Shown: piece by piece, positions 51,001-55,514 of the stretch
Layout of the letters: each line of letters opens with the position of its first letter
How positions within the stretch are numbered: the first letter of the stretch is position 1
NCBI GenBank assembly: GCA_001938485.1
Contig: MQRK01223772.1
Location: 1-55,514, forward strand
Reading direction: 5' to 3'
DNA length: 55,514 bases
Source of the DNA: Girardia tigrina
Taxonomy: Eukaryota
Position numbers: made by a program

Positions 51001-54000
51001 CCTGTTCCGGCTAAAACTAATGTTACTTTAGTCTGACGATAGCGGGTAACAATTAATTTTAATTAATTAATTAAATTAATTACAATAGATTTTCAAAAAT
51101 GGCATTAAATTTTTTTGATTAATGATTATAATTTTCCATCGTTTTTCAAGTCCTTTTTTTATTATTTTCCTTTATTTTCCTCGGTAAAAATAATACTAAA
51201 AGAAAAATATCGAGTAAAAAGAAAACAAATAATTTCAAATTTCTAATGACATTTTATTTTTTTTAGAGAAATTTAATTATTATCCCATGAGTCATTGAAA
51301 AAATGCTGTCAAATTTATTCCCGTAATTAATATTTCCGTTATTTCTGTCCTCGGGGTTCTCTTTTTTTCAGATGTGTGTTTAACGAAAATTCCTGTGTAA
51401 AAAAACGACCCCCTTCCACTTTTTTATATTCAGATGCGTTTTTATTATTTAATTATGTCTTTAAATAATTATTTCATCTGTTTTGAGTTATGTTTGTTTA
51501 TTTTTGTTGGAATTTCCAAGATGATTTATTTATTTATTGAAACCTCAATAAATAATATATTTTATCAATTAATTTTATTTTAATAGAAATTTCCAAAAAT
51601 ATACATATAAATAAAGTTTTGTAATATAAATATTTTTGTCCGGAAAATAGTTTCTTTTTCGAGTTCTGCCTTCTTTTTGTTTATCAATAATGGATTTATA
51701 TGTTGAACATTAAATCTTTGAGGTTAATTTATTATAGAATTAATTGATGATAAAAATTTTTATGATTAAAGGATAAAAATAAACAAAATAAATTTTATTT
51801 GAATTATGTATTAAAAAATATTTTATAATAAAATATACATTATTAAAATTTGTTTATTAAATTGGATGTAATAAATATATTAAATTAAATTAGAATACAT
51901 ATTTAATATAATAACTGAACAAAAGAATAAATAGTTCCATATTTCCTAAATTGGAATTAGTATCAGAGATCAAAAGTTCCTTTCTCAAAAAGCGATCAGT
52001 GACTTGGGGAAAAAAATAATTCAAAAATCATTCAAATCAAAGACATTCAAAAGATTTTCGGTGTATGTTTGAATGGATCTTTTCTGGTAAGCCATGTCTA
52101 CTCGTTTCGGTGTACACATCTTCTGTTACGATTATTCAAGATACAGGGCATGAACCGGGGATCTACTAGAGGACAATATCTTATGAAGACGCGGTAGCTG
52201 TATCACATTGGGCTGTGAAGATAGAACATCAGCGTGGTCCCTACTGTCTACCTTGTCAGTTGCCAGAAAATCACCGGTGGCATTCTTTCATTTTCTTCCA
52301 ATTGTCCAACCTTTCCAAGAAGAAAGCTCTCATGGGCCTGATTTCTTTCATTCCCCCTTTTGGAGACTCTGACTATAATATATTTTAATTATAATTAATT
52401 AAATTTGGAAGAATTTAGATTTGTGTCGAACTTTTTTAATCAATTACCGCTTGTAGTCATTATTAGGAGTTAATTTAAATTTGCATCTCGCCAAAATAGT
52501 TTATTATATTTTTTTTTAATTTGATACCTTTTAAAAAAGTAAATAAATACAAAAGTTTTAAAATTAAAAATGATATAATAAAGAAAACCATCAAAAATTA
52601 AATACTTAAAATACGTAGTTATAAGTTATAACTGTAAAATTTTTTTTTATTTTTAAATAACTATTTATTTTTATAACTTATAACAATAGATATATTTTAA
52701 TAAATGTTATGAAATAATTTTAAATAAATTTTAAAATAAATAATAAACGGATTAAACTTTATAATATTTTAAGAAATAATTTTGTTAAATAAAAGGCCTA
52801 TTGTAAATATAAATTAATTACTTTTAGAATAAAATTTTATAAAATTTTAAGTTTTAATTTAAAAATTATTTTATTAATTTAAAGTTTTAAAATTTATTAA
52901 ATTTTAAAAATTGAATTCGAAGAAAAATTTATTAGATTAATTTTAGCAAAATAAGTGAATTGAAAAGAAATTTGTTCAATTCTGTGAATTATTGTTGTTG
53001 GGATATTTGTTTCCATAAAACAACAAAAGAAAAATTAATCAACGAAATTCAAAATTTTTATTTACATCACAATTTGTTTATTTAAACAAGATTTTATTAT
53101 TTTTAAAAAACACGTTTTATTTGATTTTTAAAAAACAATAAAACTAGTTTAACACATCTCCATGCTCAGTTTGGCCCTATATCTCAGCGACTTCAGTCTG
53201 TCTACGGAAACTCTCTTGGTTTGATTATTAATTTTGATCTTCATGTTCTTGAGAATGTATACTTCAGCTAATTATTGAGTACGATCCGTCGTATAACGGT
53301 TCAAGGCATATCGTGTATTCATTTCTGAGCCAAACGTTTGTTAACGTCTCAAGTCTCCGATCGATGAATGGTTTGATGGAGGCTTTCCTTGTAGCTCCGC
53401 AGTTTAAGAAATATTTGATGTTTCTTTTTATACCTTCTGGTTCTTCAAGTTGTTTTTCCGTTGCAATTGGATGGTCATTAAGTAGTCTCATATTGTATCC
53501 AAAGGTGAGCTGAGAAGGTGATACTCTTCTGTCAGATTTGATAGTGTTTCTTAATCCGAGGAGGACTATAGGAAGATTTTTATACCAATCTTTGTTTGTT
53601 TCCTATGAGGCTGCATTTAATGAATCGTGAGCCTGTTCACTAGTCTTACAGTCATGAAATCGATTCCAGCAACGTCTGTTGAATCAAAAGCCTCAAAAAA
53701 CTTCTTATAGTTATTTTTGTGTGATCGTGATCACAGAATAAATAGATTTTTACTTTTGATAATCTCTTGCACAGATGGAATACAATTGTTGCTAACCAAG
53801 GTGTTTACATTGAGAAATGATAAATAATATTTTTCTTACTAGTAATAAATTTTGTTCAAAATAAAAGTTGTTAGAACATTGCTATTTTTTTATTTCATTC
53901 GGAATCTTAGAGGCAATTGATAGAACGACGTAGAACCATCTATATTCTTTTATCAAATATAAACTCTTCACTTCGATATGCTGCTGATATAAAATGTTAA

Positions 54001-55514
54001 GATTAATAAAATTAATTTCCTCGGGCATGAATATACCCGCTCATAGTATGGTGCGAGAGCGGGCGCTGTGATTACATGGCCGCGACGCTCCTCGGCTGTG
54101 GGGGGGTGAACTTCAGGGCGCGGGGAGGTACAAATTGATACCTTTAATTTGCCGCCGCCGCTGTTTCGCTCTCGGTCGGTCTTGGGATTCATCGCGGTAT
54201 CGATCCGAAGACGGTCGATTTTCATGCTTCTTAAGGTAACTTTTTGAGTTAAAGTTTCTGTCGATTCTTCGGGAATTACGTGCATTTTTTTCAGTTTCAT
54301 TTGTGATTTAAAGCGTCAGATTCGGTAATAGATTCACTAGTGACGTAAGACACTTTGAGTTTTGATGCGTCGACAGCAAGAAATTTTATGAGAGATTCAC
54401 GGACGATTTCGGCATTTTCCGTTCGTCTTGTTGTTCTAACTTTTCAGTTTGATTTTTTTCTCAATCAGTAGGGGAAAAATGTATGTTCTCCACCACCCCC
54501 CCGGGGGGGGTCGTAACTAGTTACCGTGGTTGCCATGGCAACGGTCGCGGTTACCATGGCAACGGTCGCGGTTACCATGGCAACGGTCGCGATCACCTTG
54601 GCAACGCTTCCGATTGGCCGCCGGGCCCCCTAGCAACGGTCGCGATCACCTTGGCAACGCTTCTGATTGGTTCCTTGGTTCCCTAGCAACGGTCGCGAAA
54701 CCGTTCGGAATTTCATTCGGAATCTTAGAGTGTTTACATTGAGAAATGATAAATAATATTTTTCTTACTAGTAATAAATTTTGTTCAAAATAAAAGTTGT
54801 TAGAACATTGCTATTTTTTTATTTCATTCGGAATCTTAGAGGCAATTGATAGAACGACGTAGAACCATCTATATTCTTTTATCAAATATAAACTCTTCAC
54901 TTCGATATGCTGCTGATATAAAATGTTAAGATTAATAAAATTAATTTCCTCGGGCATGAATATACCCGCTCATAGTATGGTGCGAGAGCGGGCGCTGTGA
55001 TTACATGGCCGCGACGCTCCTCGGCTGTGGGGGGGTGAACTTCAGGGCGCGGGGAGGTACAAATTGATACCTTTAATTTGCCGCCGCCGCTGTTTCGCTC
55101 TCGGTCGGTCTTGGGATTCATCGCGGTATCGATCCGAAGACGGTCGATTTTCATGCTTCTTAAGGTAACTTTTTGAGTTAAAGTTTCTGTCGATTCTTCG
55201 GGAATTACGTGCATTTTTTTCAGTTTCATTTGTGATTTAAAGCGTCAGATTCGGTAATAGATTCACTAGTGACGTAAGACACTTTGAGTTTTGATGCGTC
55301 GACAGCAAGAAATTTTATGAGAGATTCACGGACGATTTCGGCATTTTCCGTTCGTCTTGTTGTTCTAACTTTTCAGTTTGATTTTTTTCTCAATCAGTAG
55401 GGGAAAAATGTATGTTCTCCACCACCCCCCCGGGGGGGGTCGTAACTAGTTACCGTGGTTGCCATGGCAACGGTCGCGGTTACCATGGCAACGGTCGCGG
55501 TTACCATGGCAACG

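What the first reader, a model, noticed from the sequence alone, without database searches (positions are those of the whole stretch)
53988..54291. TATA-preceded, end-closed structured RNA candidate in the tandem unit
Seen: TATAAAA about 30 nt before the GC-rich block. Stems are 54023-31/54221-29 (closing), 54036-42/54057-63, 54088-94/54121-27, and a long bulged hairpin 54172-90/54203-18. G-U pairs favour the + strand. Oligo-T tracts lie at 54241 and 54285. Inference: this resembles an externally promoted (type-3 Pol III or snRNA-like) gene of ~225-270 nt, with the X-box block of the previous unit about 250-420 nt upstream as a distal enhancer. It lacks the hallmarks of the known families I checked.
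Basis: partly seen in the sequence, partly recalled or inferred. Interest (0 to 1): 0.65.

Follow-up and report, generated by a model that had tools for sequence, protein, structure and literature searches.

The report
Tandem repeat carrying a hairpin module
A 929-base unit repeated head to tail at the end of the window has a TATA motif followed by 107 bases that would fold into a strong hairpin on one strand only, but nothing yet shows that it is a working RNA gene and not part of a repetitive, mobile-element-like sequence.

Summary
The proposed 225-270 nt end-closed fold is only weakly better than shuffles (z about -2.1 to -2.6). It is no better on the + strand than on the - strand. The real signal is narrower. 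Bases 54019-54125 form one 107-nt imperfect hairpin on the + strand (-53.7 kcal/mol, z about -3.9, 2 of 1000 shuffles as good). The - strand of the same stretch is at chance. This hairpin starts 31 nt after the TATA motif and shows the largest strand asymmetry of 979 windows scanned.

No Rfam family matches, and there is no tRNA and no strict Sm site. A T4 run lies inside the proposed closing stem. The X-box block lies upstream of copy 2 only. The antisense ORF is no longer than chance gives and has no credible relatives. No eukaryotic DNA collection was open, so homologues and covariation stayed untested.

My best reading, at moderate confidence, is a promoter plus structured leader of a non-coding, mobile-element-like tandem repeat. 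The type-3 Pol III / snRNA-like assignment is not supported, but it is not excluded.

The parts
53801..54729 (.). Tandem unit, copy 1 (929 bp)
   Evidence: Direct repeat family D1, spacing 929; blastn 100%. No identity extends to the left of 53801.
54730..55514 (.). Tandem unit, copy 2, cut by the end of the window
   Evidence: 785 of 785 positions identical to copy 1.
53988..53994 (+). TATAAAA motif, 31 nt before the hairpin (copy 2: 54917-54923)
   Evidence: Background rate is 0.9 per kb per strand.
54005..54010 (+). AATAAA motif between the TATA motif and the hairpin
   Evidence: This motif is common in AT-rich DNA, so it carries little weight.
54019..54125 (+). 107-nt imperfect hairpin: 38 pairs (24 G-C, 8 A-U, 6 G-U) in 10 short helices, loop of 4 nt
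   Evidence: -53.7 kcal/mol, and the minimum-energy fold equals the centroid. z -3.83 with 0 of 200 shuffles as good; z -3.92 with 2 of 1000. Segment-wise shuffles give z -3.5 to -4.7, at most 1 of 500. The - strand gives z -0.23 and -0.26. Pair list.
54948..55054 (+). The same hairpin in copy 2
   Evidence: Identical sequence. Grid window 54946-55055 gives z+ -5.4 and z- -0.64. It ranks 7th of 1958 window-strands and has the largest strand asymmetry of 979 windows.
54126..54245 (+).
   Evidence: z -0.69 on + and -1.21 on - with 1000 shuffles each, so not distinguishable from chance.
54219..54222 (+). T4 run overlapping the 3' arm of the proposed closing stem
54241..54245 (+). T5 run
54285..54291 (+). 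T7 run
54529..54698 (.). GC-rich sub-repeat block: a 21-nt unit x3.8 and a 53-nt unit x2.2. It holds three full palindromic RFX-type 14-mers (54529, 54550, 54571), four further half-sites and two ATTGG boxes (54613, 54666).
   Evidence: The RFX-type consensus matches 6 times on + in the array, against 0 on + and 1 on - in the other 53.8 kb.
53892..53912 (.). 21-nt direct repeat present twice per unit (also 54710-54730 and 54821-54841)
   Evidence: Family D4, 100% identity.
54470..54479 (+). The only purine run of 9 or more in the unit, followed directly by TG
   Evidence: It is a polypurine-tract-like lead for the LTR-type reading and is not a test.
53968..54315 (-). Antisense open frame of 115 codons (rejected as a gene)
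   Evidence: An ORF of 115 codons or more appears in 29-49% of 1000 shuffled units. No Pfam or NCBIfam family. No relatives. Atlas recognition 1277, with no hit.

Best explanation
The finding is one module of a 929-bp head-to-tail repeat that abuts transposon debris at the end of the window.

Each unit reads, on the + strand, like a self-contained non-coding transcription unit:
- GC-rich enhancer-like sub-repeats (RFX-type palindromes and CCAAT-type boxes);
- about 215 nt of AT-rich DNA;
- TATAAAA;
- 31 nt later, a GC-rich segment whose first 107 nt fold into a long imperfect hairpin that exists only in the + strand RNA.

I read this as the promoter and structured 5' leader of a repeated, mobile-element-like or satellite-type unit. 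The layout resembles an LTR/TRIM-type array, where a terminal repeat plus a short non-coding internal domain form the period and the array grows by unequal recombination. A TATA-dependent polymerase, most likely Pol II, would start near 54019.

Shown: the repeat, the motif positions, the strand-specific fold and the absence of coding signal.
Inferred: that it is transcribed, where transcription starts, which polymerase acts, and the mobile-element nature.
For: - Repeat: period 929, and 785 of 785 positions identical.
- Context is transposon-rich. Tc1/mariner-type frames lie at 5421-5837 and 48619-49158, and a GIY-YIG frame at 16023-16382. An integrase-C-terminus-like frame lies at 53264-53602 on the - strand, directly left of the array (Atlas score 0.93, 176 shared features, cluster with MLVIN_C).
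- Hairpin 54019-54125: z -3.83 to -3.92 on +, with 0 of 200 and 2 of 1000 shuffles as good. It is robust to segment-wise shuffles. The - strand is at chance.
- It has 6 G-U pairs and no A-opposite-C 1x1 mismatch.
- It shows the largest strand asymmetry of 979 grid windows.
- It starts 31 nt after TATAAAA.
- The unit carries tandem sub-repeats full of transcription-factor-type motifs upstream of the next TATA motif.
- Its single purine run is followed by TG.
- No coding signal on either strand.
- Precedent: TRIM arrays in which the terminal repeat is the tandem unit, the internal domain is the spacer, and the repeat carries a small-RNA-like domain with its own promoter (PMC7215508, abstract read). 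TRIM tandem repeats also occur in animals (PMC6934838, abstract read).
Against: - No transcript data exist here.
- With 1958 window-strands scanned, about 4 would reach p = 0.002 by chance. 7 of 979 windows are strand-specific outliers (one strand z <= -3, the other > -1). The hairpin is therefore suggestive only when the GC-rich block is taken as chosen beforehand.
- Its ends were set after seeing the fold. The in-grid copy-1 window 54011-54120 gives only z -2.44.
- The TATA motif has a chance rate of a few percent at that position.
- The LTR-type features are weak. No primer-binding site could be checked, because no tRNA gene lies in the window. The 15-mer starting two bases into the TGG I took for one has no second copy in the window.
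- The purine run at 54470 and the left edge of the array at 53801/53802 point to different element starts.
- No target-site duplication can be seen.
- No other copy or diverged copy lies in the remaining 53.8 kb.
- Only 1.85 copies are visible.
Confidence: 0.35

Rival explanations
1. Inert satellite-type tandem repeat. The TATA motif, hairpin and T runs are incidental features of a GC-rich, dyad-rich stretch in AT-rich DNA, and no dedicated transcript exists.
For: - The array sits at the end of the window in transposon-rich DNA, and adjacent copies are identical.
- It has internal 21- and 53-nt sub-repeats.
- z <= -3.5 is reached by 39 of 1958 window-strands in this window, and 7 of 979 windows are strand-specific outliers. 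That is about what multiple testing gives.
- TATAAAA and T runs are common here.
- No family match.
Against: - The hairpin is the most strand-asymmetric fold of 979 windows, and it sits exactly where a TATA-directed start would fall.
- It has 6 G-U pairs against no A-C 1x1 oppositions.
- Eight GC-rich control windows elsewhere gave z from +2.12 to -1.58 on either strand.
Confidence: 0.3
2. Free-standing cellular small-RNA gene array of a new family. This could be the reader's version (type-3 Pol III or snRNA-like, about 225-270 nt, end-closed) or a TATA-driven hairpin RNA such as a small-RNA precursor. It would be repeated in tandem as 5S, snRNA, spliced-leader or some microRNA genes are.
For: - A GC-rich island in 28% GC DNA.
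- Tandem unit of about 1 kb.
- TATA motif at -31.
- Strand-specific 107-nt hairpin.
- The closing stem 54023-31/54221-29 has pairing probability 0.48-1.0 in the 227-nt ensemble.
- Enforcing the 5' hairpin costs only 2.4 kcal/mol, so both folds are accessible.
- T5 and T7 runs lie downstream.
Against: - No Rfam family, no tRNA-like gene, and no strict Sm site; only one relaxed match at 54239.
- The T4 at 54219 would truncate a Pol III product before the closing stem forms, and no T run follows the hairpin.
- 54126-54245 folds at chance level.
- The full-length fold is equally good on the - strand.
- Copy 1 lacks the supposed enhancer.
- The hairpin has 10 helices of 8 bp or fewer and a 4-nt loop, which (from recall) is unlike typical animal microRNA precursors.
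- The surroundings are transposon debris, not genes.
Confidence: 0.17
3. Protein-coding gene on the - strand. The 110-codon ATG-started frame (54298 down to 53968) would be driven by the RFX/CCAAT block 230-400 nt upstream on that strand, with AATAAA about 75 nt after the stop.
For: - An open frame of 115 codons stop to stop.
- The RFX-type sites are palindromic and so also face this strand.
- AATAAA lies on the - strand at 53889.
- One PDB match at E 0.021.
Against: - A frame this long appears in 29-49% of 1000 shuffled units.
- 0 Pfam and 0 NCBIfam families.
- 0 relatives among 5.8 billion proteins at near length.
- 1 hit among 1.84 billion representatives. It is a 1369-aa internally repetitive frame matched in 8 stretches at 28% identity, which I take as compositional.
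- 0 loci in 185,579 prokaryote genomes.
- Atlas recognition 1277, below the 2300 that 91 in 100 known proteins reach.
- The PDB match is 18 bits to a single disulfide-engineered chain. No other chain reached E <= 10.
Confidence: 0.05
4. The tandem duplication itself is an assembly artefact at a contig end. In that case only one unit exists, and all that is said about the module still holds.
For: The two copies are identical at 785 of 785 positions, and the array is cut by the end of the window.
Against: The junction is clean and in register, and the unit holds a 21-nt repeat twice per period in a regular pattern. Nothing in the sequence points to misassembly, but this cannot be tested here.
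Confidence: 0.05

Closest known systems
Cassandra-type TRIM arrays: non-autonomous LTR retrotransposons whose terminal repeats carry a small-RNA-like domain (PMC7215508, abstract read)
   Same: A head-to-tail array in which a repeat plus a short non-coding spacer form the period. The repeat carries a promoter and a structured-RNA-like domain. There is no coding capacity, and growth by recombination is proposed.
   Different: Cassandra carries a recognisable 5S sequence with internal Pol III promoter and terminators; here no Rfam family matches. Cassandra is a plant element. Here the terminal-repeat boundaries, primer-binding site and target duplication are not established.
biv-TRIM of bivalves (PMC6934838, abstract read)
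   Same: It shows that miniature LTR-type elements occur in animals as canonical elements, solo repeats and tandem repeats.
   Different: I did not compare sequences, and the organism of this window is unknown.
Type-3 RNA polymerase III genes (U6, 7SK, RNase MRP, Y RNA); established knowledge, recalled
   Same: A TATA motif about 30 nt upstream of a GC-rich structured segment, with T runs downstream.
   Different: No family match. A T4 run lies inside the proposed molecule, and no T run lies at the end of the hairpin. The proximal element is untestable. The upstream block holds RFX-type and CCAAT-type motifs and is missing for copy 1.
Tandem promoter-plus-hairpin microRNA arrays such as miR-430 of fishes (PMC10417697, search listing and start of abstract only; details recalled)
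   Same: Many head-to-tail copies, each carrying a hairpin RNA.
   Different: Here the hairpin is 107 nt, 64% GC, broken into 10 short helices with a 4-nt loop. No microRNA family in Rfam matches, and no small-RNA data exist.
Structured 5' leaders of retroviral and LTR-element transcripts (R-region hairpins); recalled
   Same: Enhancer-like sub-repeats, then a TATA motif, then a transcript that begins with a stable hairpin.
   Different: No gag/pol, no verified primer-binding site, and no terminal-repeat boundaries.
Spliced-leader RNA gene arrays; recalled
   Same: A tandem unit of about 1 kb with a small structured RNA. Donor-like GGT[AG] sites lie at 54049 and 54234.
   Different: No strict Sm site. 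The candidate exon lengths and the fold do not fit known leaders. Three paper searches with strings from the block found nothing relevant.

Membership tests
Type-3 Pol III gene | TATA box about 25-30 nt upstream of the start | tested here: met
   TATAAAA at 53988-53994, 31 nt before 54019. The chance rate is a few percent.
Type-3 Pol III gene | Proximal sequence element about 50-60 nt upstream | not testable with these tools
   The taxon is unknown, and no snRNA gene lies in the window to compare with.
Type-3 Pol III gene | T-run terminator at the 3' end and none inside the RNA | tested here: not met
   T4 at 54219-54222 overlaps the 3' arm of the proposed closing stem (54221-29). The first T run after the hairpin end (54125) is 94 nt away. 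Whether T4 terminates in this organism is unknown.
Type-3 Pol III / snRNA gene | Distal enhancer about 200-250 nt upstream | tested here: inconclusive
   A motif-rich block lies 250-419 nt upstream of copy 2 only. Copy 1 has non-repeat DNA there. The motifs are RFX-type and CCAAT-type, which (from recall) are not the usual snRNA distal elements.
Any curated RNA family (Rfam 15) | Covariance-model score at or near the gathering threshold | tested here: not met
   0 matches at gathering over the whole window. At E <= 10 there were only 3 noise hits in the X-box block and 1 noise hit at 16.3 bits in a 361-nt search of the block.
Sm-class snRNA / spliced-leader RNA | Single-stranded Sm site (purine, A, U3-6, G, purine) | tested here: not met
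   0 strict matches in 54019-54300 on +, and one relaxed match at 54239.
tRNA or tRNA-derived element | Cloverleaf | tested here: not met
   ARAGORN found 0 genes in the window.
LTR/TRIM-type array | Short non-coding internal domain and no gag/pol | tested here: met
   No Pfam or NCBIfam family in the 5 unit frames given to Pfam or the 3 given to NCBIfam. The longest frame is at chance length.
LTR/TRIM-type array | Polypurine tract directly before a terminal repeat that starts with TG | tested here: inconclusive
   One purine run of 10 nt at 54470-54479 is followed by TG. However, the left edge of the array (53801/53802, also followed by TG) is in another phase.
LTR/TRIM-type array | Primer-binding site complementary to a tRNA 3' end after the terminal repeat | not testable with these tools
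   No tRNA gene lies in the window. A candidate that starts with TGG around 54049 has no second copy in the window; the 15-mer searched began two bases in, at 54051.
LTR/TRIM-type array | Target-site duplication | not testable with these tools
   The right end of the array lies beyond the window.
Animal microRNA precursor | Hairpin with a long, nearly continuous duplex, plus mapped small RNAs | tested here: inconclusive
   The hairpin has 38 pairs but in 10 helices of 2-8 bp, with a 4-nt loop. No Rfam microRNA family matches. No small-RNA data exist.
Satellite DNA | Long head-to-tail array of near-identical units | tested here: inconclusive
   1.85 units are visible and identical. The copy number beyond the window is unknown.

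The most novel reading that the evidence does not exclude
Each 929-bp unit is a working gene of a new family. A TATA-driven transcript begins with a 107-nt hairpin and acts as a structural RNA or small-RNA precursor. It is arrayed in tandem, and its enhancer is a phased array of three perfect RFX-type palindromes (21-nt spacing, two helical turns) plus CCAAT-type boxes. That would tie a repeated non-coding RNA to the RFX programme known from ciliated cells.
Probability: 0.12. Interest if true: 0.65.

Novelty: new member of a known kind. Interest (0 to 1): 0.35.

Why it matters
If the hairpin transcript is real, this would be an uncatalogued repeated RNA unit with its own promoter in an AT-rich eukaryote. 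It could be a new non-autonomous mobile element that carries a structured RNA, as Cassandra does in plants, or a new tandem RNA gene family with an unusual RFX/CCAAT enhancer array. Either way it would be a useful marker for annotating this genome's repeats, and a simple test case for whether strand-specific folding plus a TATA motif predicts transcription in such genomes. If it is only a satellite, it is ordinary.

Tried and rejected
1. Known RNA families. Three Rfam searches and ARAGORN found nothing.

2. Antisense ORF as a gene.
- Pfam, NCBIfam, the 5.8-billion-protein word search, the Atlas and a scan of 185,579 prokaryote genomes (439 pattern matches, 0 confirmed) found nothing.
- The 1.84-billion-representative search gave 1 hit, a repetitive 1369-aa frame, which I rejected as compositional.
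- PDB gave one 18-bit match to an engineered YAP chain at E 0.021. No other chain reached E <= 10. From recall, two of the aligned identities fall on engineered residues. I rejected it as chance.
- The ORF length is at chance level.

3. Bacterial, plasmid or phage origin of the GC-rich unit. There was no blastn match in plasmids or phages.

4. More copies in the window. None were found by blastn, by word-7 blastn against other GC-rich islands or by nhmmer.

5. Other GC-rich islands as the same kind of element. There was no similarity and no fold signal; 8 control windows gave z from +2.12 to -1.58.

6. Spliced-leader idea. 54196-54292 folds at z -1.49, with 19 of 200 shuffles as good. There is no strict Sm site. 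The paper searches found one unrelated paper and none.

7. Taxon.
- The one intact-looking frame (29495-30223, C2H2) has a single 58%-identical unnamed relative.
- The integrase-like frame found nothing among longer proteins.
- All frames of 100 codons or more look transposon-derived or unassignable. The organism stayed unidentified.

8. Literature on RFX sites in satellites. Of 21 papers found, the 15 listed held none on such a repeat. The 14-mers appear in print only as ordinary X-box examples or in unrelated papers (listings only).

9. HDV-like ribozyme, tRNA-like A/B boxes and a primer-binding site were considered by eye only and did not fit. No call tested them.

Not checked:
Homologues, copy number and covariation are therefore open.
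- I did not ask for any supplementary files of papers.

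
Full report
**Setting**

The window is 55,514 bases at about 28% G+C, with CpG at the expected frequency (observed/expected 1.01) and six N runs that I left alone. Every frame of 100 codons or more looks transposon-derived or unassignable:
- Tc1/mariner-type frames at 5421-5837 and 48619-49158;
- a GIY-YIG frame at 16023-16382;
- a C2H2 frame at 29495-30223.

Rfam at gathering thresholds and ARAGORN find no RNA gene anywhere in the window. I could not name the organism. 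No part of the window was taken for human.

**The repeat**

The finding lies in a 929-bp unit present 1.85 times at the right end of the window. Copy 1 is 53801-54729, and copy 2 (54730-55514) is cut by the window end. The two are identical at 785 of 785 positions, and no identity extends left of 53801.

Directly to the left, on the - strand, lies a frame (53264-53602) that the Atlas places with retroviral-type integrase C-termini: score 0.93, 176 shared features. Pfam and a search among longer proteins found nothing for it.

The unit holds:
- a 21-nt direct repeat twice per period;
- an AT-rich part;
- the GC-rich block of the finding;
- a second GC-rich block (54529-54698) made of a 21-nt unit x3.8 and a 53-nt unit x2.2.

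No further or diverged copy lies in the other 53.8 kb. Plasmid and phage collections hold nothing similar.

**Checking the observation**

- TATAAAA is at 53988-53994.
The fourth region folds as a bulged hairpin.
- T5 and T7 runs lie at 54241 and 54285. A T4 also lies at 54219, overlapping the 3' arm of the proposed closing stem.
- TATAAAA occurs 0.9 times per kb per strand in the background, and T5+ runs 12 times per kb per strand.
- The block has 4 perfect 7-bp inverted repeats against 1.24 expected. 6.9% of 2000 shuffles reach 4, and 0.6% have both a local hairpin and an end-closing stem.
- The X-box block is 250-419 nt upstream of the copy-2 block only. At the coordinates of the finding, the corresponding stretch is outside the repeat.

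**Does the proposed molecule fold better than chance?**

For 54019-54245:
- the + strand gives -88.0 kcal/mol, z -2.12, with 7 of 200 shuffles as good;
- the - strand gives -69.7 kcal/mol, z -2.68, with 0 of 200.

A repeat with my own shuffler gave -2.64 and -2.88. Eight GC-rich control windows elsewhere gave z between +2.12 and -1.58 on either strand.

The block therefore folds somewhat better than chance, but equally on both strands. The + strand's extra G-U pairs (13 of 76 against 5 of 62) are matched by its shuffles.

**The narrower signal**

Folding sub-stretches showed that 54019-54125 forms a single long imperfect hairpin on the + strand:
- -53.7 kcal/mol; the minimum-energy fold equals the centroid; ensemble frequency 0.19;
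- 38 pairs (24 G-C, 8 A-U, 6 G-U) in 10 helices of 2-8 bp, with a 4-nt loop;
- 1x1 mismatches are G/G (three) and U/U (one), and none is A opposite C.

| Test | + strand | - strand |
|---|---|---|
| 200 shuffles | z -3.83, 0 as good | z -0.23 |
| 1000 shuffles | z -3.92, 2 as good | z -0.26 |
| Shuffles within 2, 3 or 4 segments (500 each) | z -4.0, -4.7, -3.5; at most 1 as good | z -0.23, -0.12, -0.08 |

The rest of the block (54126-54245) is at chance on both strands, z -0.69 and -1.21. Enforcing the hairpin in the 227-nt molecule costs only 2.4 kcal/mol (-85.6 against -88.0). The hairpin begins 31 nt after the first T of TATAAAA. An AATAAA lies between them at 54005.

**How unusual is that in this window?**

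I scanned the whole window in 110-nt windows at 55-nt steps, on both strands, with 30 shuffles each. That made 979 usable windows and 1958 window-strands.
- z <= -3.5 is reached by 39 of 1958. Most of these are symmetric inverted repeats.
- The window that frames the copy-2 hairpin (54946-55055) ranks 7th of 1958 on the + strand (z -5.4, a noisy estimate). It has the largest strand asymmetry of all 979 windows (z- is -0.64).
- Against this, 7 of 979 windows are strand-specific outliers, which is about what so many tests give by chance.
- The grid window over copy 1 (54011-54120), which cuts the last 5 nt of the hairpin, gives only z -2.44.
- I set the hairpin's ends after seeing the fold.

Taken as a test of a block chosen on other grounds (a GC island in a tandem unit), the result is suggestive at roughly the 1-3% level by my estimate. 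Taken window-wide, it is not significant alone.

**What it is not**

- No Rfam family matches, even in a 361-nt search with the laxest filters.
- There is no strict Sm site.
- The T4 at 54219 and the lack of any T run for 94 nt after the hairpin do not fit a Pol III gene that ends in a closing stem or at the hairpin.
- The antisense frame (53968-54315, 115 codons) is no longer than the longest frame in 29-49% of 1000 shuffled units.
- That frame has no family and no relatives. Its only hits are a repetitive junk frame and an 18-bit match to one engineered PDB chain. Its Atlas recognition value is low, 1277.

**The upstream block**

54529-54698 holds three full 14-nt palindromes that fit the RFX X-box consensus as I recall it, spaced 21 nt apart. 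It also holds four more half-sites and two ATTGG boxes. A TGACGTAA lies at 54341. The consensus matches 6 times on the + strand in the array, against 0 on + and 1 on - in the remaining 53.8 kb. Two of the listed papers, by their titles, are on Rfx and on cilia and hold one of these 14-mers (listing only). I found no paper on RFX sites in a tandem repeat (15 of 21 listed). Whether these sites are bound is untested.

**Interpretation**

The unit has no coding signal. It sits in transposon debris, carries enhancer-like sub-repeats, a TATA motif and a strand-specific hairpin at the predicted start, and is repeated head to tail.

This layout resembles the promoter and leader of an LTR-type element. 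It also resembles TRIM arrays, in which terminal repeat plus internal domain form the period. The Cassandra TRIM even carries a small-RNA-like domain with its own promoter in the repeat (PMC7215508, abstract). TRIM tandem repeats occur in animals too (PMC6934838, abstract).

The specific LTR hallmarks remain weak:
- one purine run followed by TG at 54470-54481;
- no testable primer-binding site;
- no visible target duplication;
- an array edge in a different phase.

I therefore give the 'transcribed, mobile-element-like promoter-leader module' reading 0.35. The remainder is unassigned.

**Limits**

For the papers cited, I saw search listings and two abstracts. I asked for no supplements. Statements about Pol III promoters, Sm sites, R-region hairpins, miR-430 arrays and the RFX consensus rest on recall.

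Noticed in passing
54529-54698 (and 55458-55514): Three perfect 14-nt RFX-type palindromes at 21-nt spacing, four further half-sites and two ATTGG boxes inside 21-nt and 53-nt sub-repeats. This is the strongest cluster of this motif in the window (6 matches on + against 0 on + and 1 on - elsewhere).
   Followed up: partly
54491-54511: A run of C followed by a run of G forms a 17-nt near-perfect palindrome (94%) just before the X-box block. Windows over it and the X-box block fold strongly on the - strand (z -3.2 to -4.7).
   Followed up: no
54341-54348: A single TGACGTAA (CRE-type octamer) in the unit; 2 matches in the other 53.8 kb.
   Followed up: no
53264-53602 (- strand), perhaps up to about 53790: A frame resembling the C-terminal part of a retroviral-type integrase abuts the left edge of the array. 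By eye the similarity continues in broken frames towards 53790. Pfam and the protein search found nothing.
   Followed up: partly
13961-14400 and 22891-23260: Two further GC- and CpG-rich islands (up to 56% and 61% G+C) with no long frame, no Rfam match, no similarity to the unit and no fold signal. Their nature is unknown.
   Followed up: partly
23528-23578: A degenerate CCCTAA-type run (8.5 copies, 73% matches), i.e. telomere-repeat-like, inside the window.
   Followed up: no
7536-7700: The strongest fold in the window on both strands (z -14 and -12 at 7591-7700). It is a symmetric inverted repeat, probably transposon termini or a foldback.
   Followed up: no
26046-26151: A perfect 29-nt tandem repeat, 3.7 copies at 100% identity.
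   Followed up: no
29495-30223 (- strand): A 242-codon open frame with C2H2 zinc fingers. Its only relative in 5.8 billion proteins is one unnamed 189-aa protein at 58% identity.
   Followed up: partly
4713-5837, 31199-31573, 39207-39854, 48619-49158, 9854-10402, 16023-16382: Remnants of Tc1/mariner-type transposases, a reverse-transcriptase-like frame (by eye) and a GIY-YIG frame. The whole window is transposon-rich with no evident host gene.
   Followed up: partly
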